Source: Raja brachyura (Eukaryota). Taken from it: a DNA stretch of 64,000 nucleotides. The DNA is taken from NCBI GenBank assembly GCA_963514005.1, contig OY740798.1, positions 11,098,001 to 11,162,000 of the forward strand, read 5' to 3'. The translations under genes were made by a program, and so were the position numbers. The first letter of the stretch is position 1. Each line of letters opens with the position of its first letter. Shown piece by piece: positions 14,815 through 61,910 of this stretch. The notes below the pieces were generated by a model. It saw nothing but the letters and a program-made list of their open reading frames with translations, had not been told where the DNA came from and searched no databases.

Positions 14815-15495
14815 ATGTATAGAAAGGAACTACAGATGCTGGTTTACATGCTTGTTTGATAGAAACAAAATGTAACTCAACGGGACAGTTGAGGAAATCT
14901 GAGGAAAGACATCCTTGCCATAGAGGGGGTACAGAGAAGATTCACCAGACTGATTCCTGGGATGTCAGGACTTTCATATGAGGAAAGATTGGATAGACTC
15001 GGCTTGTACTCGCTGGAATTTAGAAGATTGAGGGGGGATCTTATAGAAACTTACAACATTCTTAAGGGGTTGGACAAGCTAGATGTTGGAAGATTGTTCC
15101 CGATGTTGGGGGAGTCCAGAACAAGGGGTCACAGTCTAAGGATAAGGGGGAATTCCTTTAGGACCGAAATGAGGAAAACATTCTTTACACAGAGAGTGGT
15201 GAGTCTCTGGAATTCTCTGCCACAGAAGGTAGTTGAGGCCAGTTCATTGGCTATATTTAAGAGGGCGTTAGATGTGGCACTTGTGGCTAAAGGGATCAGG
15301 GGGTATGGAGAGAAGGCAGGTACGGGATACTGAGTTGGATGATCAGCCATGATCACATTGAATGGCGGTGCAGGCTCGAAGGGCCGAATGGCCTACTCCT
15401 GCACCTATTTTCTATGTTTCTATGTTTCTATGACAGGCATAATCTCTGGAGAGAAGGAATGGGTGACGTTTCTGGTCGAGACCCTTCTTCAGACT
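14815..15495 (-). mobile_element. Penelope-like terminal repeat split by a CR1 insertion; hammerhead motif at 15461-15495
   Basis: 14815-14888 and 15432-15495 are two halves of the repeat consensus (gtaactca.cgggacag / acaggca..tctctggagagaaggaatgggtgacgtttc). Confidence 0.75.
14889..15432 (+). mobile_element. CR1-type LINE 3' fragment (ORF2 C-terminus, 3'UTR, tandem tail)
   Basis: Encodes GLSYEERLDRLGLYSLEFRRLRGDLIETY...RTRGHSL...FFTQRVVSLWNSLP; ends in (TTTCTATG)n. Confidence 0.92.
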
Positions 15496-15739
15496 GCGAT
15501 ATCATTTGTTCTTTCTGAAGGATATGCCTCCACTCTGCCCATAGTTTTGTAAAAAACAAAAAGTTTCCCCTCTATCGTGCTTCTTTCTATTTGAAGCATT
15601 GTAATTTATGCAATGTCATGATTGCAATCGCCTTAACACAGTCGATTGGCCCGTCGCTGTCGTACTGTTGTTTGTGCAAACTTGCTGAGGGTAAATTGGC
15701 TGCCATCGCAAGCGAGATGCTTGGCAAGAGAGGGGCCCT

Positions 15740-16060
15740 GATCAGAAAGGTAGCCTATCCATGTCCTCCGGAGATGCTGCCTGGCCCGCTGAGTCAGTCC
15801 CGCACTTTGCGCCTTTTTTTATTTGTAAACCAGCATGTGCAGTTCCTTGGGTCTACGAGAACTTGATTGGTGCGCGGCAGGCAGATCATCTGAAAGATAC
15901 TACATTATTGCGAGTCCGTCAGTTACCAGTCTGAAGAAGGGCCCCCACCTAAAAGGTCCTCTGTCCATTCCCTGCACAGATGCTGCCTGGCCCGCTGAGT
16001 TCCTCCAGCACTTATTGTGTTTTGCTCACGATTCCAGCATCTGCAGTTCCATGTGTCTTC
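15740..16060 (+). mobile_element. Two tandem degenerate Penelope-like terminal repeats
   Basis: gatgctgcctggcccgctgag..ccagca..ccagcatctgcagttcc units, with a degenerate CTGAAGAAGGG motif at 15931. Confidence 0.7.
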
Positions 16061-16099
16061 AGATACTAGTCTCAGCTTGTCATTCTCTGATCCCAAAGT

Positions 16100-16400
16100 G
16101 TAATCATCGTGTTCTATTATACATTAAACCGAGGAGGGATTATATTACCAATGACAGCCGATTGTATCTCCGCGCTGTTTTCAGCAGAGAAAGGCTTTCC
16201 CATCATCTGTTACAAGATATCATTGGTCTGGATTAGAGCAACTCTACATTTCGCCATTAAAAAAAAAATAATGTCTTAATCGCATTATCAATTCCGACCA
16301 TTAACTTTCCCTTAGCAAAGCAACTTGTAACCCCAACAGGAAATCTGTAATCACACCTCTCTCCGAGATGATTAAGAGCAACCCTCCACTGAAATAGAAC
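16100..16400. promoter_or_regulatory. Candidate intron 7 conserved element (7CE3-like)
   Basis: TAATC/GGATTA (K50 homeodomain) sites, TGACAG (Meis) and CCAAT/ATTGG in non-repetitive sequence. Inferred. Confidence 0.35.
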
Positions 16401-18689
16401 TCGAGATAAATATTGAAACTGAGCACAAATCAGAGTGTCCATAAACGAAATAAACATAAACATGGAAACAAGTTAGCCTATAACGTCACGAAACAAGTTC
16501 GCTTCACTTCCTCATTATGAAATATTTCATAGAGTATCCGTCCCAACTTGGTTCGACTAGTATTCGAAGATATCTGACCCTTCATTACAGTCTTGCAGAG
16601 GAATGTTATTTTACGCTTTCCCAATGACCAGGCGACCCGATGATTAGTGAAAAAATATGGCGATTAATATTATTTCCAAGCCACGTGTTACGGAAATATA
16701 TTGCAAACTAACTTTTACATGAAGTTAAACATGATTTCGGGCCTTGATGATTATTTCAATGAGCTCAACCATGCATGCAATATTATCCACAGTAGTTTCT
16801 AATTCGATGCCACTTTAAAAATATAGGAGCCACGAGGAGGGAATAATTGCTTTAATGTCCAAGTTCCAACGAATTGTTCCCCTCGATCCAACTGAACGAC
16901 GACCTTTGTATCTTTGACCAATAAAGCGACACGGAGCAGATGTGTTCCCCAAATAATAAACGGGATTCCTTTAAGAATATCCACACCACTTCTTAATGCT
17001 CCGGATCCAACTCGTGCCTCGATGTTTGAGTAGGTTTTTAAAAGTCCATTATGTGAAGCGCAAGTCAGGGTTAGATCTCAGAGAGGGAGTATGGTTTCAG
17101 GACCATTTATGTCAACCGGCAGAGGAGAAAAAAATAATAGCAATATCGAGTGTGATAATAGTTTAAGGGAGACATCTTTATCAACCCTGTCCTTTAGATC
17201 AGACAGTGCGACATTCTCCAGCGAATTAGGGGGTTTAAGCATCGCTGTGACAGTTTGTTCTTAATCTTTTTTTTCTTAAAGCCTTCTACAGGATTTAGAC
17301 ACTTTTCTTTCACAAGGTTTATAGTGAAAGCCAGTGTGTTTCTCATCTGTGCTGGTGCGCTGAAGAGTGCCGCAATCCGTTTGCTATCTCCTTGCTTGTT
17401 TTCCGCGTGAATGATTAAGACACTGAGAAACTAAGGAATGATTTTATTTCCCAGAGCCTTATTGTAAAAAACAAATCCTAACCCCAGCGTCAGTTGGTCT
17501 GGCTGTGGGATAAAAGGACGCACATTTATCCTTCTTTTTACGGATTAGCTCTCAGGAGTAACAGCACCAGGGACCGAGGTATTCAATTGGTTCTTTCGGA
17601 GATTTCAAACCGCCCTCCCCAAAAAGAGACATAAAAGAAAGATAACTTAATTGTCTGTCGTTTGGTGTGTGTTTTTTTTAAATTCCTGTACCGCCTTTAT
17701 TTCAAAGACAATCGAGAATAATCGGTTTATGTCTGAAGAAATTGACAATATTATTGTGTTTTACTTCACCTGTATTCAAATACCGTGTGTATTGGGCATG
17801 GAAGCCTTAATCTATATTGCTTGGTCTATAGCATGTAGATTTTTAAATGGTGATAGTATGTAAGGTGCAAGTTGAAATGTTGTATTCAACTAGAGTGATG
17901 GTTGGGAGCGCTTATTATTAGTTTTTAATTTGAGGATTAACAGCAGACTCCAGAGTTCATTCGCCCTAATTAACCGTTGTTCTTCGGCAGTCTTGGTTTG
18001 TAGTGCACAAACCCAAGCTTTCTCTTCGAAATGTTAGGAAGGAGGTGAAAATCAGTTAAGCCAACGAATATCAGGTGAACGAGTTACTGGAATCTGGATA
18101 TTTGATGGAGAGTGGGGGAGGGGGGAGGGGGGAGGGGGGAGGGGGGGGGGGGTGCAGGGCGTGTAGGCTTGGAGGCTTGAAAATTCGTTGAAGAACAGGA
18201 GTTCGTTCAGATTCCTGCATTTAGAGCAACGGGAGGGAGAAAAAAAAACTTAAAATAGAAAGCAAAGTTGATGGCAAGCGGGGAAAATCGTGTCGGCCGC
18301 AAATCCACCCAGGGAGGTTGTGCAGGTGCAAAGTGTTATAGATGTGGACATTGAACAGGGGATAATAGGGTCGATAAAAATGTCACATTGCGTCCTGCAA
18401 AGGCATAAAATAACGTTGCTTCGATCCCGGTGAACATACTCCAGAGGAATAGTTTCCATTACCGAAAGCGGCCAAAACAAATGACAAGAAAAACCTTGCA
18501 ACGTGTTGGGGGGACGCAGGAACTAATATAAATGTAAAGGTTGATTTTGCAACCTGAGTTAAAGAATATTTTATTTTCTTGTTAGCTAACAGACTGGCGC
18601 ATAGAGAGAGAGTCTCATTCAAACTGTTGTCCCAAATGCTTTGGCCCATTCTCCTCCTATAGAATGTATACGCGTTGAACAGTCCAACT

Positions 18690-18950
18690 CGGAGGACAGT
18701 GATTAATGATAGTGCCGTACAAAGGTTAACATACTTCACTGAAAAGTCTGTTGACTGTGATGCTTGTGTGACAATGTGGAGAACTGCCCGCCTGAAGAGA
18801 ATCCTTTTGTTGCCTTCCCGCGATAACTAGCGATTGTATTCTCAAAATTCTGCCCAAGAAAATTTGCCAAACCTTCTGGCCTGGGACTTTAATGGTTTCC
18901 GTCCCTATGCTGGCATTGTGCGCCTGAAAGGCTATTCAAGAGTTGGCGGC
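18690..18950. promoter_or_regulatory. Candidate distal intron 7 conserved element
   Basis: GTGATTAATGATAG..ACAAAGG..TGACAATG motifs. Inferred. Confidence 0.25.
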
Positions 18951-19824
18951 CACTGCAAAAGACATTTAAAAACCGCCCATATGGTGGTCAGGAACATAGA
19001 GACAATCTCTATTTTAAAGGAAATTCCTTAACTCTCGGAATTTTTATGTAGCTTGGCTTGTGAAACGCGGGTTTCCGTCAGTTTCTAAATGGGCTACGTT
19101 TAAAATGCAAGTGGGTCCGAATCATAGACTTTTCTTTAATTAATTAGGGATTGTGTGTGTGTGGAAATCGGGGTGCATCGTAAACCATTGACTTCGATGG
19201 CCATATGACACGATAATTCTCGCTGGGTTTCAGCCTTAACGGCTCTTTAAAAGGGTTCGATCAACCATGAATCATATGAAAATTGTTATCTCATAAACCT
19301 TGCAAAGATGTGATTGAGCAGTAATATTGACATATGTTTACAGGATTCTGCTTGCTTTGTTGCCAGAGTTTAATAATGTGAGGTATGTGCTGACAGATGC
19401 ACTTCTCTGCACTTGTTTGGTTCTTTAGGCATTGAGTACAGTCCTCCCCTATTACAATCAAATATGAATCTAAGCAATCTGGGTCGCTTCAGTTAACCAA
19501 AGTGTTAAAATTTGGATTTATTATAGCGCTCGTCACAATTCTGTTCCTTTTTTAAAAAGTACTTATGTATCACATGTACGAGCTGTCCTTTATTCTATAT
19601 ATAAGAAAATTATAGGCTGTTATTACTGATAATATAATTGCCGGCAGGCTCAGCAGTGAGAGGCCAAGATTATGAGCTTTCAGACTTCTACTTAAATCAA
19701 CGAAGAGATAAATTCCGGGGTTTGAACTTCTGGAATGTACCGTCTGTAAAGTTACTGGGTGACTTGGCGAAGAGAGGTTTGATTAAAACAATTACTACAG
19801 TAGGGAATATACGGTAAATACTAG

Positions 19825-20085
19825 TATGTAGGAAGGAACTGTAGTTTACATCGAAAGACAGAAAAAACTCATCGGGCCAGGCAGCATCTGCGGGGAAAAG
19901 GAATAGGTGACATTTTGAGGTCTACTGTGGGCTCTTTAGCCATCGGAGCCCTTTTCATACCTCTGGTTTCCCTTTCCCGGACTCTCGGTCTGAAGAAGGG
20001 TCTCGACCCGAAACGTAACTTATTCCTTGTATCACAGAGATGCTGCCTGACCCGCTGAGTTACTCCAACATTTTCTGTCTATATT
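19825..20085. mobile_element. Head-to-head pair of Penelope-like terminal repeats
   Basis: Minus copy about 19825-19915, plus copy about 19960-20085. Confidence 0.8.
19987..20020 (+). ncRNA. Minimal type-I hammerhead ribozyme motif (best-preserved sense copy in Pax6 intron 7)
   Basis: GGT-CTGAAGA-A-GGGTC(TC)GACCC-GAAA-CG-TA-ACT: intact core, stem II, palindromic ACGT stem III and a 3-bp stem I. Activity is not shown. Confidence 0.65.
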
Positions 20086-20479
20086 CATGGAGAATACTAG
20101 TTTGAGAAGGAAACTCTGGGGTATTGTCGTTTCAAATGGTAATCTGCATATTAACAGTATCGGGATACTGTCATTTGGGGACTGGAGTTGGACTGGCCGT
20201 TGCACGGAGCTCAGCAATTAAAGACTTGTTCACTAATAGTGTAACAGAGACGCCGATGGTTACGAGGACTGGCGACTCCTAACATCGTAGATGATTCTAT
20301 GGTAAATTTATCAAGTTATCAAAAGGTCCAAAAGTCTTGCCGTGACCTGTCCCTGTAGCCCGTTCGGTGCCAAACACTGCGAGTGGTTTCACACTTGGTC
20401 CCAGCAATCGGATGTCCTCTTGACCCATGAGGTTACTGCCGGCTCCTATCCAGATCGTTGTAATAGTGCAGAGAGTGTG

Positions 20480-20840
20480 GAAAGGAACTGCAGTTGCTGG
20501 TTTAACAAAAAATGTAAAGACACACAAAAAATCTGGAGTACCTCAAAGGGCCAGGCAGCATCTATGGAGAAACGGAATAGGTGATGTTTCGGGTAGTTTC
20601 CACCTAGCCAACAGCTAACAATGGACCGTTTCCTTGATTATCGTTACTTTTTGGCATAGTAATTCGTTCATTTGTTCTAACATCTCTCCATGTCACCGTT
20701 TACATCTCTCGTTTCCGTTTCACCTGACTCTCCGTCTGAAGAGGAGACTGGACCCGCAATGTCAGCTGTCAGGTTGTTCTTCCTTTTCTCCAGAGAGGCT
20801 ACCTGACCCGCTGACTTATTCCAGCTTGTTGTGTCCATCT
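20480..20840. mobile_element. Head-to-head Penelope-like terminal repeats (degenerate)
   Basis: Minus copy about 20480-20593, plus copy about 20595-20840, with a degenerate CTGAAGAGG..GACCCG motif. Confidence 0.7.
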
Positions 20841-21236
20841 AATATTAGAGATTCTGGTACCTCTAAAGCAAAAGACCATGCCTGCTTGAAGTTGCAATTT
20901 CCCCACTCCCATCAATTTAACGTTAGCTTCATCTTAACAATCAACTAATTACATGTTTATTGGTGAATTAAGAATGTAATAGAATATGTTGTATAGGGCC
21001 AGGCCATTATGTCCATCTAGTCGTGTTGTTAATAATGGGAATAACCAATATTGGAATGAAGGATTGATAGTACAATGTATAAAAACGATTAAATAATATG
21101 AAATGAATTATTTAATCAGTGTTTTTTTATTCTTAAATGTAAAACAATAAAAAAAATGGGTAAATAGGTTGTACTGTATTTGGTGTAAACCAGCATCTGC
21201 AGTTCCTTCCTGCACAAACTATTACTTAAGTCGTGA

Positions 21237-21521
<285 letters not shown>

Positions 21522-21528
21522 TGAGTGC

Positions 21529-21686
21529 NNNNNNNNNNNNNNNNNNNNNNNNNNNNNNNNNNNNNNNNNNNNNNNNNNNNNNNNNNNNNNNNNNNNNNNN
21601 NNNNNNNNNNNNNNNNNNNNNNNNNNNNNNNNNNNNNNNNNNNNNNNNNNNNNNNNNNNNNNNNNNNNNNNNNNNNNNNNNNNNNN
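21529..21686. other. Assembly gap (158 N)
   Basis: Run of N next to a GA-rich microsatellite. Confidence 1.
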
Positions 21687-21899
21687 GAAATGGAGATGGA
21701 TGGATAGAGAGAGATAGGGAAAGAAGGGAGGGAGGGAGAGCGGGAGGGATGGAGAGAGAGAGAAAGAAAGAGAGTGAGAGTGTGCATAAGAGCGATTTTT
21801 TCATTTCTACACAGATTTTCAGGCAAACATTTAACGTCCATCCCTATTTGACCTTGAGAAGGCAATAATAAAGACAATGTTGCAATCACAGAGTAATAG

Positions 21900-22270
21900 A
21901 GTTTCATAGAGAAATACAGGATGGAAATAGCTCTTTCGCCCCAACTCATCCATGCTGACTAAAATGCCCATTTAAGCTTGTCCCATTTACCCGTGTTTGG
22001 CCAATATATTTCAAAACATTTATAATGTATTTGAAATATTGTAATGTTACCTGCCTCCACTATTTTCTCTGGCAGCTCATTCAATATACCCACCATCCTC
22101 TGTTTGAGGAAGTTACCCCTCAGGTCCATTTTAAACCTCTCCCCTTTCACCTTAAATCTCTAATTTATCTCTGGGGAAAAGGCTGTGTGCATTTACCTTA
22201 TCTATGGCCCTCCTTATTTTGTACAGTTCATAAGGTCACCCCACTGTCTTCTAAGCTCCAAGGCATAATG
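21900..22270 (-). mobile_element. CR1-type LINE 3' fragment
   Basis: Minus-strand translation KGERFKMDLRGNFLKQRMVGILNELP (CR1 ORF2 end). Confidence 0.8.
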
Positions 22271-22284
22271 TTCTACTTTAGGAG

Positions 22285-22385
22285 GGTCTAAAGAAGTCAG
22301 AAGGTCACCATCCTGAAATGTTGTCGGTCCATTCCACCAGATGCTGCCTGACCCTCTGAGGTCTTCCAGCATGTTGTGTTTTGAA
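22285..22385 (+). mobile_element. Degenerate Penelope-like terminal repeat
   Basis: cctgaaatgttgtcggtccattcc..gatgctgcctgacc..ttccagca. Confidence 0.6.
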
Positions 22386-23859
22386 TAAAGCCCTAACCTG
22401 CCCAACCTCTCCCCACAACACAGATCGTTGAGTCCTGGATATTATTTGCACTCTTATATTAAGAGTGGAAATATTATTATTAATTGCATATTTCCCTATA
22501 GCTGGGTGGTCAAATCTATACCCAACATCCAAGTCTGTGTGCTAATTGTTAGATTTGCTACACATTAAGGGAATCAAGGTATATTGAGTTGCACATAAAG
22601 GTTAAAGGTCAGCCATGTTTTATTGAATGGCTGGTAGCAAATGGGTTGAGGGGCAGGTTTGACTGATCTACTCCTGTTCATTTTTTTATGTTCTTATAAA
22701 AGCTCTCTCATTGTGCTGTTGCTAGAAATTATAAGGACTTGAGCCCACAGTGATGAAAGATTAATTATATACTTCCAAGTAAGGATGGTGTGTGTTAGAG
22801 GTTGTGATATTCCCACGGGCATGCTGCCTTTATTTAATGCACTATAGATGGCAGATTTGGAAGATGCAGCCACATAAGCTTTGATGGGTTGCTGCAGTGC
22901 ATATATTAATTTAAAGTTTAATGCACATATAGCAGCAACAAGCACTGTTGATGGAGAAAGCGATGTTTGAAGTGATAAAGTTATATCAATCAGGTGACAT
23001 TCATGGCAGAATACCAGCTTTTGAATGTCCTTACAGCTACAGTATTTTCATATTTGATGCAACTAATGTTCTTCTCTATGCTGAGCTCCCCTTGATGGTA
23101 GACCATAGAAAAGTACAGAACAGGAACAGGCCCATTGGCATACAATTTCTGTGCCGAACTTGATGCCAAGTTAATCTAATCTCACCTACCCGCATTTGCT
23201 CCATATCCCTCTATTCCCTGCATATCCATTTTGATGAGGATCCAGCTACTGAAGGCCATAGTGTGGTATTTGCTTTCTTTTGTTGGAGATGATCACTGCC
23301 TTGCGCTTATGCATTACAAATATTATTAATGAATATCAGCCCAAACATTGTTGCCCAGGTCTTGTTGCATGTGGATAGACACAGCTTGACTTCAAAGGGG
23401 AAGCGAGAGAGATAAAAATGCAGAGAACATGAGGGGGGTGGGATTAGCAAAAGAGCAGTGTGAGACTGGTGGTGAATGAGTTTGTGGATGAGAAAGCATA
23501 GGAGCCAAGAGTCAAGAGACACAAGAGTGTTTTATTGTCATATGTCCCAGATAGAACAATGAAATTCGTACTTGCAGCAATACAACTGATTATGCAAGTG
23601 AGTATGTGAGACAAATTGTTTATGAAAGTACGTATGAGTGAAAGAGTGAGATCAGGAACATGGAAGTGTGAGTATGCACATAAAAATGAAATAATTTGAT
23701 AGAGAACAGTGAGATAGTGAGGTTGCGTATGAAAGAAAAAGAGAGAGACAGTGACAAGAGAATAAATGAAAAGTGGAGCATTGTGATTGAAAAGTAAACA
23801 ATCATATTTTATGCTCCCTACCAACCCGTTTTATTTTATTTTTGGAACATCTGGGAGAT

Positions 23860-24340
23860 ACAGCATGGAAATGGGCCCTTTGGCATAACCCAGACATGCT
23901 GATCAAGATTCCTCCTTGAGCGAATTACATGTTTTTGGTCCATGTCCCTCTAAAACCTTCCTATCCATGTACCTGTCCACATGTTGTTTAAATGCTGATA
24001 ATGCATGTACCTCCCCAAATGTTGTCTTACAAAGAACATTTGGACAGGTTAGAACCATGAGAGGTGACTTGATTGAAGATAAGATGGAGGTCTTGATGAG
24101 AGAATTGTTTCCACTCAATAGAGAATGGTAAACTGGGGTCAATATCTCAGAACAAGGAGACACCAAGTCAAGATTCAGATCATGTGAAACCTGTTCTCTT
24201 GGAAGGCCACAAGACTTTGGTACTCTCTTCCTCAAAGGATGATGGAAGAAGAGACTGGATATTTTAAGACAGAATTATACAGACAGTTGATTAGCAATAA
24301 GATGAAATGTTTGCCAGGGATAGGCTGGAATTTTGAATTG
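23860..24340. mobile_element. Old CR1-type LINE fragments (minus about 23860-24010, plus about 24030-24340)
   Basis: ccctctaaaaccttcctatccatgtacctgtcc (LINE tail, reverse strand) and an RGDLIE-encoding segment. Confidence 0.6.
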
Positions 24341-24372
24341 ATGTTAGAGCCACGTCAGTCATTACTTTATGA

Positions 24373-24621
<249 letters not shown>

Positions 24622-24739
24622 TAAATCAGTGTGTTTTGAATTGTGGTGACAATATTTCCCAGGATTTGGACCTGGAACTTTTTTTTCCTGTCTGATGTGG
24701 ATCTGGAATGATGATTTCAGTCCCACTCTGTCAGAGTGG

Positions 24740-25230
24740 AACCCCTGATAGAAGCAGGGTCGGTTCACCAGGTTAATTCCCGGGATAGCAGGACTTTTCA
24801 TCATTCCCAAAACGATGAAAGAATTGAACGACGGGGCTTGCATTCACTGGAATTTAGAAGTATGAAAGGGGAGGTTATAGAAATGTATATATTGTTTTAA
24901 GGGACTGGACAAGCGAGATGCAGGAAACATGTTCCGGATGTTGGGAGAGCCCAGAACCAGGGGCCACAGTTTAAGAATAAGGGGTAGATAAGGAAAAACG
25001 TTTTCACCCAGAGAGTTGTGAATTTGTGGAATTCTCTGCCTCAGAAGGCAGTGGAGGCCGATTCACTGGATACATTCAAAAGATAATTAGATCGTGCTCT
25101 TAGGGTTAGCGGAATCAAGAGATATGGGGAGAAGGCAGGAACGGGGTACTGATTGTGGTTGATCAGCCATGGTCTCATGGAATGGCGGTGCTGGCTCGGT
25201 GCTGCCTCCTGCATCTATTTTCTAATTATC
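24740..25230 (+). mobile_element. CR1-type LINE 3' fragment in intron 9
   Basis: Close paralogue of 14930-15420 (agaaccaggggccacagtttaagaataaggggt; gagagttgtgaatttgtggaattctctgcc). Confidence 0.88.
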
Positions 25231-25293
25231 TGTGTATTTTTTTTCTTTAAATTGCTACTGATTAAGATTTCTGTTCCATTTCCGTTTTGGAAG

Positions 25294-25444: not shown

Positions 25445-25469
25445 GTGAGTTCAATGGCCACCGTCAACC

Positions 25470-25790: not shown

Positions 25791-25791
<1 letters not shown>

Positions 25792-25872: not shown

Positions 25873-25875
<3 letters not shown>

Positions 25876-50779: not shown

Positions 50780-51989
50780 CTGTTAAAAGGAGAGAAAGGA
50801 AGAAAAAGACTTTAAAATCTGTTAAGGCTATCTAAGATAAATCACTACAATAATAATAAAAATCTGAATTGCAGAGAAAAATCAATGATTATTTCATTCT
50901 TTTCAGAAAAGTTGACGTCAAAGAACAAAAGCAATGGCACTTTCTAGTAACAATTTGCAGTTGCACACTGCATTTCACTTGCTTAAGAACCAATGTATCT
51001 TTGAAGTGCAGTCATCGTTTTAATGGGGGAAATATTCCAGTGAATCATTATGCTTTAAGGTCCCACGACTACATGTGTGTCAGTTGAGTCACTCCTGGGA
51101 AATCACATTTCTCTTCTAGTAATGCTGCAGGATCTTTGACATTTGCTTGAGAGGGAAGAACGGACTCTCTGCAGAGTGCTTACAGTAGTTTGCTGGTATT
51201 AGCTTAGATCATCTGTTCAAACCTCTGGAAGGGGATTTGTCCCTCCAGTTTGAGAGGTGAGTTTGTTGTCGACTGTCACCGCAGAACATTTCTGCAATTA
51301 AATCTTGTGGCTTAGCAGATCCTAAATTAATCATTCATGGCACCATAAACATTTTAAACCCCATGTGAAAAAATAAAGCACAAAATCTTAATGCTGCATA
51401 AAAGAGCATGCAGTAATTCAAATTGGTTTATATTTATAACATTCATTCATTCATTCATTTGAATCACCCTATAATTCCCACCAGGGAGGACTGACATATA
51501 ACATACATCTTTGTAAATGATCAAATAAGTGTCAGGCAGTGAATTGGAGTGGAGTGGAAGGATCTATAGTCCAAGTCATTCACCAGTCTTGCTTTGAACA
51601 TGGAATAACTTTGTGTCTTCATCTGTGGTATAAGGTGGACACAAACTCACCCAATGTACACACACATTTATGCCTAACACTTAGTTGTGTTGCATCTGTT
51701 TCATCAGAACTAGGAAATGTTAGATAGAAATATTAGAACGTTTCAAAGAAGGGAGAATGATGGAGGGGTCAAAGGGAATATCTGTGATAGCATGGAGACC
51801 AAACATCACTGAAAGATGTCATGTTGGCTGATCATAACACCTTTCCCAATATGACTACCAATAAGTCTCCTTCTTTTTCTCCACCATAGTTCAAAAGGTT
51901 TCCAACTCATTTTCATTTTCAGCACTTTTCTGCCCTTACCCCCTCCACCTCGACCATTTGTCCTCATTATTTTCTCCAGTCTGTTCCAC

Positions 51990-52625
51990 GTTCAAAGTAC
52001 ATAGTTTCTGATACCTTCAGCATAATGACACTGTCACATCTTCTCCCACTACCACTCCACACTACTTTCCCCAACTCCACTTCTTTTAAGGTTCTGAAGG
52101 ACCATACCGTCTATGACTCCCTGTACTGCACTCGGTGCTTACAATGTTCTCTCCTCCGTACTGGACAAAACTAAATGCAGATTAGATTACGGTTTTGTAC
52201 AATGACTCCATGCAAGCTTCTAAACTGATCCTCAACGTAAGTTCATCTCACTCTCACCTGGTTGTCTGTTCCAAATAAACTTGAGGAACCCCATCTCATC
52301 TTGTTACTCAACTGGCACCATCATCATTTGTGTCATGGAGACACAAGAAAAATATTTTTTTGATTCTTTATTCTTTCCATCAACCTGCCCCCACCACCAT
52401 CTTCCCTCTCTGCCACTTTAAACATTTTCAGCCATGACTGAATGGTGGAGTAGATTTGATGGACCAAATGGCCTAATTCTGCTCCTATAACTTACAAACT
52501 CATTTGCTTTGTGAACTTCACTATTTCTAAAGAATGATCATTGAACTGAAATTTTAACTCTGTTCCTCTCACCACAGATGCTGCCTGACCTGCTGAGTAA
52601 TTGCATCATTTCCTGCTTTTATTTT
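51990..52625 (+). mobile_element. Old Penelope-like element fragments with an interspersed CR1 tail
   Basis: KLEEPHLI-like segment (aaacttgaggaaccccatctcatc); terminal repeat at 52540-52620. Confidence 0.5.
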
Positions 52626-52949
52626 CATGAAATGTTCCCAGAGATTGACTCATACCATTTTCTGAGAAGATGAATAATGAATTATAATTTTAAGCAATCA
52701 GTCGGTCAATGAGTAAATAGCTTGGATATTATTGTGAGGGGCCTGTGTCCCACCTTCCCTCACCCTCCCTATGTGGGGATAACTTCTGGGGGAAGTAAGA
52801 AAATATGCCAAAAATATTGTGTATGATGATATATAAGACTATATAAGATTTGTCCATCTACCAAGGTTAATGCCTTGTTCAAATTCTAGTACCTTTTCCA
52901 AAAAGTAAATAGAACACACTGATCTATAACATTCCTAGTTTATTCCCTG

Positions 52950-53665
52950 TAAATACAATACAATTTATTGTCATTGAATCTCAAATGAAATTTGGTTTCT
53001 GCAGTTATACAACAAAAAGAAACAATTAACAAGACACACAATTAACACAAACATCCATCACAGTGAATCTCCTCCTCACTGTGATGGAAAGCGAAGTCAT
53101 TGTCTCTCTCCTGTTTTCCATTCTTCTCCCGATGTTAAAGCCCCCGGTGGGCAATGGCAAGTCCCGCGGCCATTAAGGCCGTGGCGGGCGATGTAAGGCC
53201 CTGCTCCGGGTCTTGATGTTGGAGCCCCCGGCGGGCGATGGTAAGTCCTGCTGCCGTTAAAAGTCGCGCCGAGCGATGTAAGGCCCCGCTCCGGGTTGTT
53301 TTCAACCCCGCAATTCGGGCGGGAGAAGTTGCCGTTGTGGGAGCTCTGAAAAGTGGTCTCCCACCAGGGACCCGCGAGCTCCCGATGTCACCGTCCACGG
53401 GGCCTGCGGCTGGAGCCTCCGAAGCTGGGTCACTGTCTCGCGCCACCACAGCTCTCCACGCTCTGAAGTCGGCCAGCTCCACGATGGTGAGTCCGCAAGC
53501 TCCGTGACTGCAGGGACCTTTGGACAGATATATGGGTAGGAAGGGTTTAAAGAGCTATGGGCCAAATGCAGCAAATGGGACTAGTCCAGTATGCCAACTT
53601 GGTCAGCATGCACAAGGTGGGCTGAAGGGCTTGTTTCCATGCTCTACAGCTCCGACTCTATGAAT
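52950..53665. mobile_element. GC-rich retroelement 3' region with an internal ~86-bp tandem duplication (minus), then a CR1 tail (plus, 53520-53665)
   Basis: aatacaatacaatttattgtca tail; duplicated unit gcccccgg.gggc.atgg.aagtcc..gcgatgtaaggccc.gctccgggt. Confidence 0.6.
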
Positions 53666-53979
53666 GCTTACAAATGAGCTATTATAACAAAAAGGTTTCT
53701 TCCTGCCACTCAATGTATCCAACATTAGAAAAAAAAAATCTTACAATAGCATTAGTGTTATCAATTGGGAATGATATCGAATATTAACACAAAACAACAA
53801 TTGTATTTATGCAACGCTTTCCATGCAGTAAATTGTCCTAAGGCAACATATTCCATCTCAAAAAAAATGTAACTTGGCTAGAAGGTGATGCTAAGGCGGC
53901 TAGCCAAAAGCTTGATCAAAAGAGGTGGGTCTTAACAATGTTTTGATTGAAGAAACTAAAGAGGCTTTTATGATGATAC

Positions 53980-54620
53980 CAAGTATACAGTGGAGAAAAA
54001 TGGCAGCTGAGCCAAAATTCCTTTTGTGATATTTATAGAACAATTCAAAGTGCTGCCATAACAACTTTGTTTGTGATAGACCTGCCATAACCAGTAGTTC
54101 ATCAATAAATGCTTGGTTGGTTCAATCGGCCGCTTGCAAAATGGAGTTGTACATTTCTTTACATTTAGACAGTGAACGCAATATATAAAATTATAAATTC
54201 TGGTTTACCGTAAATGACAATATTGATATAAATTGAGAAGTTTCTAGATTTCAAAATTCAGCAATGCTACAGGCTATGCCTGCTTTATCATTTCACCAGT
54301 ATTAAATATTTTCAGTGAGTACACCTCTGCATAGCTTAATTGCCTTTGCATCTAGATGGATGTGAAAAATATGGTATAACTCGGCTTCACGTGGCATTAG
54401 GCTAATACCCATGAGTACAAAGCCTATATGCATCGCTGTAAAGAAAATACACTTAAAAATAGTAAAAGCAGTGTCCATTGCTTCACTCGTCCACGTTTGC
54501 ATGAAGCCGTCCAATCATAATTTCTGTCCAAAAAAAAACAGTTTACCAACACAAAATACAATAATAAAAAATATTACAAGCCTTAAAAACTATTGGTTGA
54601 CTCGGTCAGGTCCGACCCCT
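53980..54620. promoter_or_regulatory. Candidate long-range Pax6 enhancer (conserved non-coding element) in the last ELP4 intron
   Basis: About 600 bp free of repeats with retained CpGs inside TE-rich DNA; ACAAT/CTTTGT, TCAATAAA, TAATTG and CACGTG motifs. Pax6 enhancers are known to lie in ELP4 introns. Confidence 0.45.
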
Positions 54621-55787
54621 CTGGCAGTGGTAGACAATCACGCCACATCACTTGCATCCTAAAGCCTGAACAGGCCTGTAATTAGTTGGTGAATCCAATG
54701 AATATACTTGATTTTCTGAGCTTCCTCTAAGCATCACAAATGGAGGAATGCTAGTCCCTGAACATTGATTATTATCTTAAGCTCAATAAAAGCATAGCCA
54801 CTGTCCTCATTGTTTGAATTCCAAGCATTTTCTGTTTACAAAAACACAAAGACAGCTACTTGACAAGTGGATATCTTCAAGATCATTTGACTTCCAGCCT
54901 CAAGGCTTAAGCCAAAATATATTACTTGACTTGCATGGTGTGGCAGGAGCTCACACATCACAAACCTATCAATTTCATCACCGTGTCTCAATATCAGCTT
55001 ACAGTGGTGACATAATACCCATAACATAATTATTTCTAATATGTAGCAAACCAAGATCCAGTATTGCAGTTGGTCAGCTTATTTGTTCTAATTAGAGTTC
55101 AGTTCAAATGACAGAGTTCACTGCAGGAGCCTGTGGCTCACATGTGCCTTTACATACACTTTCAGTTGCCAACGTTCAAATGAAACAAGACTCCCAATTT
55201 CCACCTGTATATGTGCAATGAAATACTTGAGATACACGAGTCACTGACTCTTGGATCAGCTGCTGATAAGACCGTAAGACATAAGAACACAGAATTTGAC
55301 CATCGGCCATCGAGTCTGCCATTCGATCATAGCTGAATTTTTCCCTCTGAACCCCATTCTTCTGCCTTGTCCCTTGACCTTAACCTTTGACGCCCTTACT
55401 AATCAATATTCGCTTCTGATCCGTGGTACTCAACCTCAGCCACATTAGGAGAGTATTCACTGCGTGAAGCTTCCTGAAGAAAGGAGGAGAAAAATTAGAC
55501 TGGAACCGTCTGCCCATGACTCCAAATAGCTTAAAAAATAAATTACAATCGTAATCTGTATTCGCAGACTATAGTGTCCTCCATAATGTTTGGGACAAAG
55601 ATTCGTCATTTATTTATTTGCCTCTGTACTCCACAATTTGAGATTTGTAATAGAAAAAACATATGTGGTTAAAGTACACTGTCAAATTTTAATAAAGGCC
55701 ACTTTTTATACAATTTGGTTTCATCATGTAGAAATTACAGCAGTGTTTATACATAGTCCCCCCATTTCAGGGCAGCCTCTGTATTTC

Positions 55788-56059
55788 TGTTCATGAATGT
55801 AGATTAGTATTTCTTTACTGTATATATATATATCACCACACAGATTATGCATGCTACACATTCCTTATGTAGTCCAGTCCAGATCGTCATCCCCACCCTG
55901 GTCACACCGGTCCTATAGTCAGTGCGTCACTCTCTCTCTTTAGATTTGATGCAGACCACGGGGATGAAAGCATGTTGTGTTCCCTCCGGTTGTACTTCAA
56001 TAAAGAGTTATAACCTCTATGTGTTGTCTGATCATTCAACATGGTGTCAGAAGTGGGAT
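55788..56059 (+). mobile_element. Gypsy-type LTR (TGTT..AACA, internal AATAAA) followed by a tRNA-Leu primer binding site
   Basis: ...cattcaaca|TGGTGTCAGAAGTGGGAT (56042-56059), complementary to a tRNA-Leu 3' end. The LTR 5' boundary is approximate. Confidence 0.7.
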
Positions 56060-57445
56060 GGACGTATATGTGCGCGGTCAGGATAATCCGGAGGTGGTGC
56101 TGGTCCGTTCAAAGGCAGGATGTGCTGTCTATTACGTCTGTAGGTGCCGTCATCGGCACTGACCAAATATGAATGTGGTTCGGAAGCAGTTCCAGAAATT
56201 ACATCAAGGCGGTCTTGACCCTTTTCGGTTTGCAGGCGGACCACCTGTCCCTTGGCTACTGGTGGAAGTGGTCTGCTCGTCATACCATCCTTTTTGAACG
56301 CTGCGCTTTTGTTGTAGCCTGGACTGGATTTCGGATGGTGGGATCACTTGCGGTACTAGTGCCTGTTTCGTCACAGGTAGTGTGGCTCGGGTTTGCCTTG
56401 ACATCAGTCGCTGGGCGGGTGAACCCAATATCGGGTCACGGGAGATGTTGCGCAGGTTGAGCAGGTCTAGGTATATGTCTGATCCTGCTCTGTGGGATCG
56501 TTCCATCACTTGTTTGGTACTCCTGACGGCATGTACTGCCAGCCCGTTTGACTGTGGGTATGCGGGGCTGCTGGTGATATGACGAAAACCCCAGCGTGTA
56601 GTAGGCTTTGAAGTACTGGCTGATAATTTGACTGCCATTGTCAGACAATAGCTGATACGGAGACCCGTGAACAGAGAAATGGCGTGCCAACTTCTGGACT
56701 ACCCCTGCAGTGGTGGGGCTACTGAGTAGATCGATTTCAAACCATCTGGAATACGAGTCGACTAGGACCAGGTATTGTTTGCCATGCCACTCAAAAATGT
56801 CAGTTGCCAATGTGGACCATGGGAGGTTGAGAACCGAGTGTGAGAGAAGTGGCTGCTTTTATTGGTGTGGTGTCAAACTGTTGTACACTGCACAGGACTT
56901 TACTTTCTCACGAATATAATCAGCCATGCCAGGCCAGAAAAACATGCTGTTCACTAGCAGGACAGTTGCCTTTGCGCCTGGGTGTCCCGCATGGATGGCA
57001 TCAAAGTACTTGTTGTGTAAAGAGGCAGGAATTACACCTTTGTGGCCCTTTCCGATAATGTCTTCTTGTAGTACTAGTTCACCACGAATGGCAAAGGAGG
57101 GCTGGATTGGGAGTGGTAATCTGTATTGCTTGTCTGGCCACCTGTGCTTAATGACGGAGGAGAGCGGTCATAAGGTATAATCAGCAACAGTTTGGGCTAC
57201 CAGGTCCTTCAAACAGGACGAAGGAACATCGGAGGCTGTCATGACAGGATGATTTCGCACAGGTCTTCCGTGGAGCACGTGACAGGGTGTCATCCAGGTG
57301 CATGTCCTTGCCACGTTTGTAGGTTAGAACAATGTCATACTTCTGTAGCTGTAGCAACATATACGTTGGAGGTGTCCTGGAGAAGCGTGTATTGGTTTGT
57401 TCAGAAAGCTGATTAGGGGTTGATGGTCAGTGTCAATCGTGACCC
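56060..57445 (-). mobile_element. Gypsy/Ty3 pol fragment (RNase H and integrase), frameshifted
   Basis: Encodes VTIDTDHQPL, MLLQLQKYD, KDMHLDDTLSRAP, ATDIFEWHGKQYLVLVDSYSRWFE, LLSDNGSQ, HITSSPAYPQSNGLA and YRRNRQHI. Confidence 0.9.
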
Positions 57446-58359
57446 GGGTACTTTAGGGTGGGCTTTCAGATGCGACCTGCACGCGTACGGTCCATTCCTG
57501 CATTTTCTCCCTTCACCGGAGATGCGATTGGTGGTAGAACAGGAGATTGAAACAGCATCCCTGGCGATGAAACTGGAGACCTTGGTAGGGGTTCAACAAT
57601 GAAGTCTTCTGCAAACAGTGGTCATTGACAAATCCACACCTAACTCCTGAAGAGTGCTTCTGATCTGTCGGACAGGTGTTTGGGGATTTTTCTTTATTAT
57701 AGAGAGAATTCTTCTGTCATCAGCTGGAGGTCTTCCTTGACCTGCCAGTACCTTTGCGATTAGGAAGCTCACCAGTGCTCTCTTACTTCTTAATGATGTT
57801 CCAAACAGTTGATTTTGGCAAGCCTAAGGTTTGACTGATGTCTCTAACAGTCTTATTCTTGTTTCTCAGTCTCATAATGGCTTCTTTGACTTCCATTGAC
57901 ACAACTTTGGTCCTCATGTTGATAAACAGCAATAAAAGTTTCCAAATGTGATGGAAAGACTGGAGGAAATACTAGGTGCTGAACACACCTGATCAATTAC
58001 AAATACCTGTGAAGCTATGAGTCCTAAACATTATGGTGCCCTGAAATGGGAGGACTATGTATGAACACAGCTGTAATTTCTACATGGTGAAACCAAAATG
58101 TATAAAAATACTCTTTACTAAAATCTGACAATGTGCACTTTAACCACATGTGATTTTTTCTATTACAAATCTCAAATTGTGGAGTACAGAGGCAAATAAA
58201 TAAATGATGTGTCTTTGTCCCAAACATTATGGAGGGCGCTGTACATCGAGTTCCCAAGGGTTGTGCAGGAACAGAAAAACATGGTTGAACACATTTTGTT
58301 TAGCAGGTGATAGGGCATGTTGAGCTAGTGATTAGTAAACCACAGGGAAACCTTGGATT

Positions 58360-58730
58360 CATACATAGAACATATCTAACACAGAAATTAAGGCAATGAC
58401 TGGAATATCACATCCAATTCTGCACACCATTCTCGGAAAAATATGTAGATGTGTAGAGGGGCAGAAAAGATTCACTGCATTGATCCCAGGCATGGGAGAT
58501 TTGAGATAAAAGGTGAGATTGGAAAAGTTGGCATTATTTCCTTGAAGCAAAGTAGATTTGATAGCGGTAATATAATCGTGATTGGTTTAGATTAGGTAAA
58601 CAGAGGAAAGTGAATGCTTCAAGGGCCACCGGCACAGATTTAAAGTTTTGCCCACAGGATACTAGAGGGATGAGAGCAAAATAACATTTATGCAGAGAGT
58701 CATACCAATCAAACAGGGATTTCAACAGGG
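58360..58730 (+). mobile_element. Old CR1-type LINE fragment
   Basis: gcagaaaagattcactgcattgatcccaggcatggg..gattggaaaagttggcatt. Confidence 0.65.
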
Positions 58731-58919
58731 TAGGTATTCCAGGAAAATTAATTTGAGACTAATGGGATTGCTCCACTCGTAGCTGACACACACTCGAGGG
58801 ACTGAAAAGATTTCTTCTGTGGTGTAACATTCCATAATTTATGCCACTCAACGGTCCTTTCAGCATCAGTTAGACTTTAAAATGCAACTACACTCTGTTC
58901 AATTGGTGAAGAATTTTAA

Positions 58920-59243
58920 GGTAGACACAAAATGCTGGAGTAACTCAGCGGGTCAGGCAGCATCTATGGAGTGAAGGAAAGGGTGACGTTTCGGGTCGAG
59001 ACCCTTCTTGAGACCGATGACAGGGGAGGCGGCGGGACAAAGATAGAATGTAGTCGGAGACAGTAAGACTGGTGGGAGAATTGGGAAGGGGGAGGGGATG
59101 GAGTGAGAGGGAAAGCATGGGCTATCTGAAGCTAGTGAATTCAATGTTCATATCGCTGGGGTGTAAGCTACCCAAGTGAAATATGAGGTGCTGTTCCTCC
59201 AATTTGCGCCGGGCCGCACTCTGACAATGGAGGAGGCCCAGGA
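58920..59243 (-). mobile_element. Penelope-like element 3' end: GIY-YIG C-terminus, 3' region, hammerhead motif with a G5C core mutation (58981-59016)
   Basis: Minus 59122-59242 translates LGLLHCQSAARRKLEEQHLIFHLGSLHPSDMNIEFTSFR*, followed by the terminal repeat. Confidence 0.88.
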
Positions 59244-59547
59244 AGCTTGGGAACAGTTGTATATTGCATAGTTAGGTGCTGGAACACTTGTAGTTTGTAA
59301 CATTAATATTTTGATGCAAACACAGGAAGTATGATTTGCAGTTGTATGTTTACAGACAACATGAAATTTAACTGTAAGGAGAATAGTGTTCACCTATAGA
59401 ATGATTCTGCCAAAGGGAAGATGGGAAAGCAATGGCTGACGGCATTTCTTCCTGAAAATGTGAGATAATGCATTTTGGGAGGGTTAATAAGACTAATAAC
59501 AGTGAATGTATGGATTCCTTGGAACTACCAAGGAACACAAGGATCTG

Positions 59548-59675
59548 AGTCTGAAGAAGGGTCTCGACCCGAAATGTCGCCTATCTCCTTCGCTCCTTAG
59601 ATGCTGCTGCAACCGCTGAGTTTCTCCAGCTTTTTGTATAACCCTCGATTCTCCAGCATCTGCAGTTCCTTCTTT
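59548..59675 (+). mobile_element. Penelope-like terminal repeat with hammerhead motif (59548-59581), inserted in a CR1
   Basis: AGT-CTGAAGA-A-GGGTC(TC)GACCC-GAAA-TG-TC-GCC; flanked by CR1 sequence, with a near-duplicated aacacaa(g/a)gatct on either side. Confidence 0.8.
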
Positions 59676-59699
59676 AACACAAAGATCTTGGTGTACTGT

Positions 59700-60320
59700 A
59701 TATGTTCAAGGAATCAAGAACTAGAGGGCATAGATTTAATGTGAGAGGGGAAAGATTTAATAGGAACCTGAGGGGCCACTTTTTCACACAGAGGTTGGCA
59801 AGTATATGGAACAAGCTGTGAGACGTTGAGGCAGGCACAATAACAATATTTAAAAGAGTTTTGACCAGATATACAGATATGACAGTTTAGAGAGATATGG
59901 ACCAGGTGCGGGGAAATGGCCAAACATGGATGGGGCATCTTGGTCAGCATGGACAAGTTGGGCCGAAGGGCCTATTCCCCAGCTTTATGACCCTATAATT
60001 TCTGAAGATAGCAGCACAAGTAAATCAGATGGTTCGGAAAGTATATGAGATTCCTAGTTTCAGGTTTAGCAAAGGTTTAAGAAAAAGGGTAGGAGCTTCA
60101 GAAGGGATTTGAGAAACTTTTTTTTAATATCCAAAGGATGGTTGAAATCTGGAATATGGGGTGATGGAGGCAGATTCTCACACAGCACTTTAGTATCTGA
60201 AAGAGCAATTGAATTGGTAAGAACTACAGGATGTGTGCTGGGAAATAGGGTTAATAACAGATAACTTATTGACAGCCAGTATGGTCACAGTAGGCCAAAT
60301 GGCCCTTTTCATTGCCCTGT
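59700..60320 (+). mobile_element. CR1-type LINE 3' fragments
   Basis: agaactagagggcatag..aggaacctgaggggc..ttttcacacagagg..gggccgaagggcct. Confidence 0.8.
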
Positions 60321-60894
60321 GATAGATAGGATGTATGATCTGTGCCACCCATCTCAGCGGCTTAGGTATAGTATTGCCAGATGTATACTCCTGCCTATGG
60401 ATCATTCTCTGAACAATTACTCAGTTATGCAACAGAATAAGCAAACCAGATGACGAACTGTAAAACCTGCTGCAAGTTTGCATGGCCAAATGCGGTTTTG
60501 CAGAAACTGCTTGAATTCTAGGACCTGAGTAATAAGCAAAGGCTAGAAGCATCTTGGCTTATTTGGAAAATCAGTCAAGCGTAATACCTGAACTTGTAAC
60601 CCTTCAAATACGTCAAGTCTCTCTTGCTTCAGGTTACATGTTTAACATTTTTTCTGTAAGTACTCACTAAAGAAGAGCTAGGATTCAAACTACAAGGGTA
60701 TTAAGTGACAATTGATTTTAAATAGCTCAAAAATTCATTATTACCCTTTAGGACCATTCTTTCCAGTTGTATTCCGCATTATTTCTGGACCTGCATTATT
60801 CTGGAAAGATACAACTGCAAAAAATGTAACATCAGCAAGAATTTATTTGGAATATACATGCTGCTTTGATTCAGTGTTATCTATATAGACAAAG

Positions 60895-61910
60895 CTCAGT
60901 CCAAAGAAAGGTTTCGACCCAAAACGTCACCCATTCCTTCTCTCCAGAGATGTTGCCTGTCCTACTGAGTTACTCCAGCATTTTGTGTCTACCTTGTATA
61001 TATTGGATTATCAGTATAAATTCAGCCAAGATATGTAATCTCATGAAGGAATATGCCAGTTTTTGCTCATTTAGTAGAATTCTTGGATATGAGCCAGAAT
61101 GTTAAAGGTTTTACTCTAGAGACTTGAATTCAACAATCTAGACAGACATTTCACTGCAGTGCCCAGGTTTGAAGTACTGTTGACAGTGTTGTCCTTAAAC
61201 CAAGGTCTCATCTGCTCTCTCAAAAAGGATAAACAGCAATAGAATCTGCCTTGTTTGCTGACTAATAATTAGTACCCAGTTAACATTACAAAAACGGAAA
61301 TATGTGTGGGCGCTAGCTGCATTTGGATGTGTTGCTGCACTACCTATTTCTATTTTCTCCCTTCCCAGATACTGCCCCCACTGGATTTCCTTTCCCCCTC
61401 CCCCAATGGTCCCCACTCCTCTCGGTTTACTGTTCCCATCGGTCACCACCCTCTGAAGGGTCACGACTCGAAACGTCACCCATTCCTTCTCTCCAGAGAT
61501 GCTGCCTGTCCTGTTGAGTTGCTCCATCTTTTTGTGTCTATCTTCGGTTTAAACCAGCATCTGCAGTTCCTTAAATTCAATTTTCTCCTTCCTTTTGTTT
61601 CCGATTCCAGAATCTGCAGGTTTTTGTTCTCCGTCTATCACCTCACAGCTTCTGTTGCCAACTCTACTCTTCACTCCCCCATCTGACCATTATCTGCAAA
61701 GCAAGGCTCTCAACTGTATCCAGGCTACTGGCCTTTGCCTCACCCATTCCATACCTCTTTATATTCACTAATTATCCTCTACTCTTTCAGTTTAGAAGAA
61801 GGATTCGACTGGCATATCCCTCCACAAATGCTGCCCAACCCTCTGATTTCCTCTGGATGCTCTCCTTTTTTTTTTGCAACAGATTCCCAGCATCTGCAGT
61901 TCCTTGTACC
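60895..61910 (+). mobile_element. Several tandem Penelope-like terminal repeats (60895-60995, 61330-61625, 61780-61910)
   Basis: Repeated aaacgtcacccattccttctctccagagatg.tgcctg and ccagcatctgcagttcc. Confidence 0.75.

What the first reader, a model, noticed from the sequence alone, without database searches (positions are those of the whole stretch)
15461..61480. Dispersed family of Penelope-derived minimal hammerhead ribozyme motifs, including sense copies in Pax6 introns
The commonest repeat here starts with RGT-CTGAAGA-A-GGGTC(TC)GACCC-GAAA-CG-TH-ACY. This is the hammerhead core (CUGANGA...GAAA...UH) with stem II, an extra A after A9, and a palindromic ACGU stem III that can only close in a dimer. 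That layout is established for Penelope-like element hammerheads. Linkage to GIY-YIG C-termini (38908, 59122-59242, 28545-28625) and RT motifs (37400-37575) supports a PLE origin. Copies with an intact core: 19987-20020(+), 26588-26622(+), 27285-27318(+), 39055-39088(+), 59548-59581(+), 15461-15495(-) and about 37350-37380(-). About a dozen decayed copies also occur (e.g. 15931, 20736, 33075, 33125, 37761, 40430, 58981, 60900, 61453). Stem II varies while keeping its pairing (GGGTC/GACCC with TC or GT loops; GGC-UUCG-GCC). Three core-intact copies are sense in Pax6 introns 7 and 10, so the pre-mRNA of a dosage-sensitive gene may carry self-cleaving potential. The ELP4-sense copy at 58981 has a G5C core mutation. 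Caveats: stem I is only 2-3 bp, and the intron 10 copies have lost the ACGU palindrome.
Basis: partly seen in the sequence, partly recalled or inferred. Interest (0 to 1): 0.8.

Follow-up and report, generated by a model that had tools for sequence, protein, structure and literature searches.

The report
Penelope hammerhead repeats, neutral in introns
These repeats are the end pieces of a recently active Penelope-like jumping gene and carry its known minimal hammerhead-ribozyme motif (74,406 intact copies in this genome); they are as common on the read strand of introns as on the other strand, so the copies in Pax6 are likely harmless passengers.

Summary
The motifs are real: 7 hammerhead cores in the window against 0.1 expected. 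They head a ~100-135 nt repeat that is the pseudo-LTR of a Penelope-like element. Intact 1,192-aa RT + GIY-YIG copies and a 3,965-bp tandem array exist, with the motif 166 nt before the ATG. The genome holds 74,406 intact core + stem II + ACGU motifs. This is the min-HHR class of Cervera and De la Peña 2014; this scan noted the same kind in other genomes.

The Pax6 idea fails its own tests. In 1.6 Mb inside 35 genes, intact cores were 78 sense to 65 antisense, and strict motifs 25 to 26. Cores decay like the rest of the repeat, and covariation is at shuffle level. Only copy 19987 is fully intact, and its active fold is not predicted. No cleavage assay was possible.

Possibly new: copies begin at the first base of the hammerhead, not at its cut site, and end at two sites about 35 nt apart. 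That suggests reverse transcription of the uncut 5' leader.

The parts
19987..20083 (+). Solo pLTR. Hammerhead 19987-20020 is the only copy in the window with core, 4-bp stem II, ACGU and 3-bp stem I. Predicted cut after 20017. Sense in the Pax6 intron between the exons at 11607 and 21315.
   Evidence: insertion shared with coded relatives E and F
26588..26710 (+). pLTR with tail; core intact, stem II 3 bp, ACAU instead of ACGU; sense in Pax6 intron
26505..26592 (-). 5'-truncated pLTR, head-to-head inverted partner of 26588 (typical PLE arrangement)
27285..27382 (+). Solo pLTR; core intact, ACAU, stem I 1 bp; sense in Pax6 intron
15432..15495 (-). pLTR 5' part, antisense in Pax6 intron; G10.1-A11.1 mismatch; abuts the 3' end of a CR1-like LINE (label recalled)
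38908..39147 (+). 5'-truncated PLE: GIY-YIG C-terminus, ~115-nt spacer, pLTR 39055-39147 (G10.1-A11.1 mismatch)
37289..37614 (-). RT fragment (37614-37387) joined directly to base +1 of a pLTR (37381-37289)
58919..59241 (-). 5'-truncated PLE: GIY-YIG C-terminus 59241-59125, spacer, pLTR 59015-58919 with G5C; sense in ELP4 last intron
59548..59680 (+). Solo pLTR with tail, of the young subfamily; core intact, AUGU; antisense to ELP4
28200..28625 (-). GIY-YIG C-terminus, spacer and tail remnant; hammerhead part missing; antisense in Pax6 intron
15729..61855 (.). About 22 further decayed or truncated pLTR copies (15729+, 15928+, 19918-, 20595-, 20734+, 22286+, 25471+, 31076+, 33013-, 33106-, 33158-, 33368-, 34631+, 37758+, 40457-, 40467+, 40971-, 46353+, 52527+, 60898+, 61455+, 61795+)
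9943..29310 (+). Host gene Pax6, coding exons located by short recalled peptide motifs
50650..50785 (-). Host gene ELP4, last coding exon (name recalled from the peptide); its last intron runs about 95 kb, to window position ~145,950 in the neighbouring stretch

Best explanation
The repeats are pseudo-LTR copies of a recently active Penelope-like retrotransposon, each headed by the element's minimal hammerhead motif, and after insertion they likely decay as inert passengers, in Pax6 as elsewhere. Shown: in intact elements the order is GIY-YIG stop, a variable spacer (about 100-250 nt), hammerhead (+1 to +34), pLTR body (to about +97), tail (to about +135) and, in tandem units, the ATG at +167. 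Inferred: reverse transcription starts inside the RNA at two sites (+93-99 and +131-136), as measured for the anole element, and runs through the uncut hammerhead. It often stops at +1, likely the RNA's 5' end, giving solo copies; priming on the downstream pLTR gives longer and full-length copies. The ribozyme likely matters only in the element's own RNA, as a protein-assisted dimer. A lone intronic copy has 2-3 bp of stem I and a 4-bp intermolecular stem III and is predicted not to fold active.
For: PLE link: 9 of 10 GIY-YIG loci have the motif downstream on the same strand; two intact 1,192-aa ORFs, 99.2% identical, with weak RVT_1 and GIY-YIG Pfam matches; 3,965-bp tandem array. Hallmarks: 227 of 675 copies have a head-to-head partner and 188 of 586 carry the tail; 3' ends cluster at +93-99 (39 of 88) and +131-136 (19 of 88). 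Neutrality: intact cores 78 sense/65 antisense (sense fraction CI 0.46-0.63), broken 114/126, Fisher p=0.21; strict motif 25/26 and 31.9 per Mb in genes against 27.6 genome-wide; core substitutions 120/2456 against body 400/7109, sense 62/1254 against antisense 58/1202. Uncut template: 2 of 80 near-identical alignments start at the cut site +32. 52 of 118 young non-inverted copies have no detectable element sequence upstream of +1. Folding: P(stem I) 0.01 or less in 8 of 8 natural fragments.
Against: No cleavage assay and no RNA-end data; only contigs were available. The strand test has no positive control: a CR1-like LINE is also unbiased (136/148). It covers 1.6 of 2,700 Mb and 35 genes, and cannot exclude depletion below about 15% or an effect at one locus. 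RNA contigs (kind guessed) of a related organism hold thousands of repeat copies, so copies probably meet in cells. Reading +1 as a transcription start is inferred from copy ends alone; a 3' splice site or an endonuclease site at the TCAG-T-CTGA palindrome fits the same position.
Confidence: 0.85

Rival explanations
1. One reading: sense intronic copies cut Pax6 (and other) pre-mRNA as dimers and affect gene dosage.
For: 19987 is fully intact and sense. Copy 25471 keeps ACGUCACC and could in principle be its substrate strand. 8 of 12 copies in Pax6 introns are sense. PLE hammerheads can cleave as dimers or with protein (PMC4209133, PMC11167929).
Against: No sense depletion or enrichment in 35 genes or in the ELP4 last intron (relaxed cores 3/4). 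Sense cores mutate at the antisense rate. With 40 nt of native upstream context 19987 has P(stem II)=0.00. About 1 in 36 kb of the genome holds an equally intact motif, so one in a 9.5-kb intron is ordinary.
Confidence: 0.04
2. The short copies are a separate non-autonomous family (SINE-like or retrozyme monomers) with its own RNA cycle.
For: Very high copy number and a sharp 5' boundary. Retrozymes related to pLTRs are reported in one chondrichthyan (bioRxiv 10.64898/2026.07.22.740005).
Against: Solo copies match the pLTR of intact elements, subfamily-diagnostic bases included. Their 3' ends match those of the long elements. They are dispersed or inverted rather than head-to-tail arrays, and they do not start at the cut site as cleaved monomers would.
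Confidence: 0.08
3. The motif is kept in the element as promoter, splice or protein-binding sequence, and the hammerhead never cleaves in vivo.
For: No covariation above shuffle level, no footprint of cut templates, and a core predicted to be paired with downstream pyrimidine tracts. No RNA-seq ends were found at the anole cut site (PMC11167929).
Against: Every catalytic position, G10.1-C11.1, the extra nucleotide and ACGU are kept across subfamilies whose spacers differ in length and sequence. Subfamily changes in the stems keep pairing (U-A/U-G). The anole motif does cleave with protein. This rival is compatible with the main conclusion about Pax6.
Confidence: 0.2

Closest known systems
Minimal hammerheads (min-HHR) in pLTRs of metazoan PLEs (Cervera and De la Peña 2014, PMC4209133)
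   Same: Type I core, extra nucleotide between 9 and 10.1, G10.1-C11.1, palindromic 15.2-16.2, location in pLTRs, mostly single dispersed motifs, some on opposite strands close together.
   Different: Stem II is 4 bp and stem I 2-3 bp, against 7-8 and 4-5 bp in their Schistosoma families. 74,406 strict copies here, against about 9,000 in Xenopus and 4,000 in coelacanth. Cartilaginous fishes are not named in the two parts I read.
PAc, Poseidon element of Anolis carolinensis (Frangieh et al. 2024, PMC11167929)
   Same: Hammerhead in the pLTR, tandem units, two 3' ends separated by a 30-40 nt tail, uncut RNA as apparent template.
   Different: In PAc the ORF starts at stem II. Here the ATG lies at +167, beyond the tail, and the protein has the CX4CxxC linker of Neptune/Nematis type.
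Neptune/Nematis EN+ PLE clades (Craig et al. 2021, PMC8557442)
   Same: Single ORF, RT then C-terminal GIY-YIG, Zn-finger-like linker, 5' truncation, partial tandems, inverted 5'-truncated copies, tail.
   Different: No tree with named references was built. The ORF has a long Pro/Ser/Thr-rich insert and is 1,192 aa.
Animal non-LTR retrozymes (PMC7229834; bioRxiv 10.64898/2026.07.22.740005)
   Same: Non-coding hammerhead-bearing repeats related to pLTRs, at very high copy number (126,247 canonical motifs in axolotl).
   Different: Retrozymes are tandem units of about 170-400 nt with cleaved or circular RNAs. These are dispersed 100-135 nt pLTR pieces that do not start at the cut site.
Ultraconserved intronic hammerheads of amniotes, e.g. 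RECK (via review PMC6155905)
   Same: Hammerhead motif inside a host intron.
   Different: Those are few, canonical and conserved across species. These are minimal, repetitive, unbiased in strand and decaying at the neutral rate.

Membership tests
PLE minimal hammerhead (min-HHR) | Conserved core CUGANGA / GAAA / UH in type I order | tested here: met
PLE minimal hammerhead (min-HHR) | Extra nucleotide between 9 and 10.1, and G10.1-C11.1 pair | tested here: met
   A at +11 in 241 of 259 copies; G-C in 191 of 273, G-T (CpG decay) in 39
PLE minimal hammerhead (min-HHR) | No helix III; palindromic 15.1-16.1 | tested here: met
   ACGT is the commonest form
PLE minimal hammerhead (min-HHR) | Lies in the pLTR of a PLE | tested here: met
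PLE minimal hammerhead (min-HHR) | Compensatory stem changes across families | tested here: inconclusive
   Within this genome only one-sided wobble changes; covariation score 0.127 against 0.125 shuffled.
PLE minimal hammerhead (min-HHR) | Self-cleavage as dimer or with protein | not testable with these tools
   needs an assay
EN+ Penelope-like element | Single ORF with RT and C-terminal GIY-YIG | tested here: met
   1,192-aa ORFs. Pfam RVT_1 E=2e-4 and GIY-YIG E=0.002, both below curated cut-offs. The best homologues, at 45-48% identity, mostly carry PF00078 and all carry PF26215.
EN+ Penelope-like element | Tandem units, inverted 5'-truncated copies, 30-40 nt tail | tested here: met
Neptune/Nematis clade | CX2-5CxxC linker between RT and EN | tested here: met
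   CNRKRCYTC; definition from PMC8557442
Neptune/Nematis clade | RT phylogeny with named references | not tested
   no named reference sequences at hand
Non-LTR retrozyme | Head-to-tail tandem non-coding units, each with a hammerhead | tested here: not met
   3 same-strand core+ACGU pairs within 2 kb in 1.6 Mb; the tandem seen is the coding 3,965-bp unit
Domesticated intronic hammerhead (RECK type) | Canonical helices and constraint at the host locus | tested here: not met
   Minimal fold, neutral decay, no strand bias. The relatives laid were too close (about 1-3% flank difference) to test constraint on 19987 itself.

The most novel reading that the evidence does not exclude
The roughly one million solo pLTRs (extrapolated from 675 in 1.6 Mb) are a built-in by-product of PLE replication. 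Transcription starts at the first base of the hammerhead, and the RT primes internally on that same 5' leader, so it copies only 100-135 nt of uncut RNA. The hammerhead is held off, possibly by pairing of its core with the tail, until the element's protein licenses it. An intact, recently active 1,192-aa element of this type is available to test when and why PLE hammerheads cut.
Probability: 0.4. Interest if true: 0.5.

Novelty: new member of a known kind. Interest (0 to 1): 0.24.

Why it matters
The class is known and its function is still open: PMC8557442 says HHR function in EN+ PLEs is unclear. This genome gives a large natural test. Tens of thousands of intact motifs sit in introns with no orientation bias, which argues that lone min-HHRs do not cut host pre-mRNA enough for selection to see. 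The copy ends argue that the template for insertion is uncut RNA, extending an in vitro result from one lizard element to genomic scale. Had the Pax6 claim held, it would have been a new route to host gene regulation; the evidence is against it.

Tried and rejected
Rfam scan: 9 weak hits, none a hammerhead. Cleaved-template model: no peak of 5' ends at +32. Spacer as an intron from the stop codon to +1: many subfamilies read AG|GTAG at the stop and CAG at +1, but the young family reads GTTAAC, and 0 of 61 ORF-end-plus-motif loci show the spliced join; not supported. Cap-derived extra G at the 5' end: G at +1 in 22% of 88 short copies against about 6% of 85 long ones, but no clear G excess at -1; inconclusive. 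Core sequestration by the pLTR body: core unpaired 0.34 against 0.41 shuffled, lower in 6 of 8 copies; too weak to claim. Positive control for strand bias: CR1-like LINE 136/148 and PLE ORF pieces 30/26, so none was found. Expression: no RNA holder listed, and contigs cannot show RNA ends. Pfam on five short fragments: one weak unrelated hit. The first GIY-YIG query returned only broken copies (10 of 10 examined); intact ones came from an N-terminal query. Lünse et al. (PMC5785218) is not held. One Sushi cluster on C3 and the mixed-strand clusters on C10 and C24 were left out of the strand test before counting, because gene limits were unclear.
Full report
Observation. All seven named cores are present at the stated coordinates, against 0.1 expected in 200 shuffles. 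The motif heads a longer repeat; nhmmer finds 31-32 copies in the window. Pax6 coding exons lie on + from 9943 to about 29310. The ELP4 last exon lies on - near 50785-50650, with a ~95-kb last intron. Gene names and exon numbers are recalled, not returned by a call. Of 12 copies in Pax6 introns, 8 are sense. Only 19987 passes a strict pattern requiring core, stem II and ACGU. 39055 and 15461 have a G10.1-A11.1 mismatch, 26588 and 27285 read ACAU, and 59548 and 37381 read AUGU.

Scale. The window is G000:C18:11098001-11162000 in a 2.70-Gb genome. One exact 33-mer occurs 9,355 times and the strict motif 74,406 times (37,084 forward, 37,322 reverse; reversed control 0).

Origin. A GIY-YIG query gave 121,032 first-look candidates. 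Of 10 long-frame loci examined, 9 have the motif downstream on the same strand and all are broken. An N-terminal query found a young family with many open frames of about 1,203 codons and four tandem units 3,965 bp apart on C18. [quoted passage not shown] In these the hammerhead begins at +1, the ATG is at +167, and a pLTR follows the stop. Several subfamilies with spacers of about 105-125, 200 and 230-245 nt share the same hammerhead head. That fits selection on the motif while elements are active.

Test of the Pax6 idea. I located multi-exon genes with four Pfam searches and took 160 stretches of 10 kb inside 35 of them. They hold 675 copies, 326 sense and 349 antisense. Among 383 that include the hammerhead region, intact cores are 78 sense and 65 antisense (CI 0.46-0.63), broken ones 114 and 126 (Fisher p=0.21), and fully intact ones 26 and 17. 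The strict pattern gives 25 and 26, at 31.9 per Mb against 27.6 genome-wide. By gene, 17 lean sense, 10 antisense and 8 are equal. Core positions differ from the commonest letter at 120/2456 sites and body positions at 400/7109, alike on both strands; CpG sites decay at 20-30%. In 62 distinct core-intact copies every covariation measure is within the shuffle range. Limits: 0.06% of the genome was sampled, gene spans were inferred from domain hits, and no positive control was found, since a CR1-like LINE is also unbiased.

Folding. In 8 natural fragments stem I has probability 0.01 or less. Stem II forms in some (0.68 for 19987 without upstream flank, 0.00 with it). The ACGU duplex is -1.7 kcal/mol and the stem I duplexes are positive. 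These are predictions.

How the copies arise. 227 of 675 copies have a head-to-head partner within 60 nt, and 188 of 586 complete ones carry the tail. Against the young leader, 3' ends cluster at +93-99 (39 of 88) and +131-136 (19 of 88), matching the two RT start sites measured for the anole element (PMC11167929). 5' ends do not cluster at the cut site (2 of 80 at +32). Instead 52 of 118 young non-inverted copies have no detectable element sequence upstream of +1, and bases -2 to -4 of such copies look like background. Three of 30 ORF-start loci also begin at +1. I infer that the template is uncut and that +1 is likely the RNA start. A splice acceptor or a nuclease site at the same position is not excluded. 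In Drosophila Penelope the promoter is in the pLTR (PMC2377424) and an intron ends at helix I (PMC4209133).

Relatives. Contigs of coded organisms E and F run from unique flank into the 19987 copy, so the insertion predates their split, but flanks differ by only about 1-3%. No RNA holder was on record.

Known status. Min-HHRs in PLE pLTRs, their dispersal as single motifs and their weak dimer activity are described in PMC4209133 (parts 1-2 of 4 read). Protein-assisted cleavage and internal priming are in PMC11167929 (parts 1-2 of 4). Clade features are from PMC8557442 (passages). Retrozymes: bioRxiv 10.64898/2026.07.22.740005 (parts 1-3 of 5; 8 of 9 dimers did not cleave) and PMC7229834 (passages). 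PMC2377424, PMC6155905 and PMC6765202 were seen as passages. Searches for a cartilaginous-fish description and for a strand-bias test listed no such paper; the library is partial and supplements were not read. Three earlier notes of this scan reached the same classification in other genomes. I saw them after forming my reading, and they are not independent support.

Verdict. A real feature and a new member of a known kind. The host-regulation reading has probability about 0.04. The residual value lies in the scale, the negative strand test, the end distribution and an intact young element.

Noticed in passing
G000:C18:46361412-46373675 (L219-L222, L243): Four head-to-tail 3,965-bp PLE units on the window's own contig; the unit examined has a stop after 313 codons, while many dispersed copies keep ~1,203-codon frames.
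   Followed up: partly
window 37387-37381 (-): An internal RT fragment is joined straight to base +1 of a pLTR, another junction at +1.
   Followed up: partly
L243:150-284; window 59548-59680: In the young subfamily the tail is predicted to pair with both the pLTR body (AGAUGCUG/CAGCAUCU) and the hammerhead core (about 10 bp). By eye the core pairing is weaker in older subfamilies. Both 3' ends lie about 20 nt after a CCAGC motif.
   Followed up: partly
pLTR -2 to +7: TCAG-T-CTGA in several subfamilies is at once a DNA palindrome, an initiator-like sequence (consensus recalled) and a 3' splice-site-like CAG after a pyrimidine tract. Some head-to-head pairs join at this palindrome.
   Followed up: partly
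L071:7026-7175: A telomere-like TTAGGG run replaces part of the leader between tail and ATG in one copy.
   Followed up: no
L051-L210: A CR1-like LINE also shows no antisense bias in introns (136 sense, 148 antisense), unlike the bias recalled for mammalian L1.
   Followed up: partly
window 14893-15430 (+), 24988-25198, 26754-27011: 3' ends of a CR1-like LINE in Pax6 introns; one keeps a 146-codon open frame and abuts the 15461 copy.
   Followed up: no
window 55570-55774 and 58037-58243: Inverted arms at 93% complementarity, 2.3-2.5 kb apart, in the ELP4 last intron; possibly a DNA transposon.
   Followed up: no
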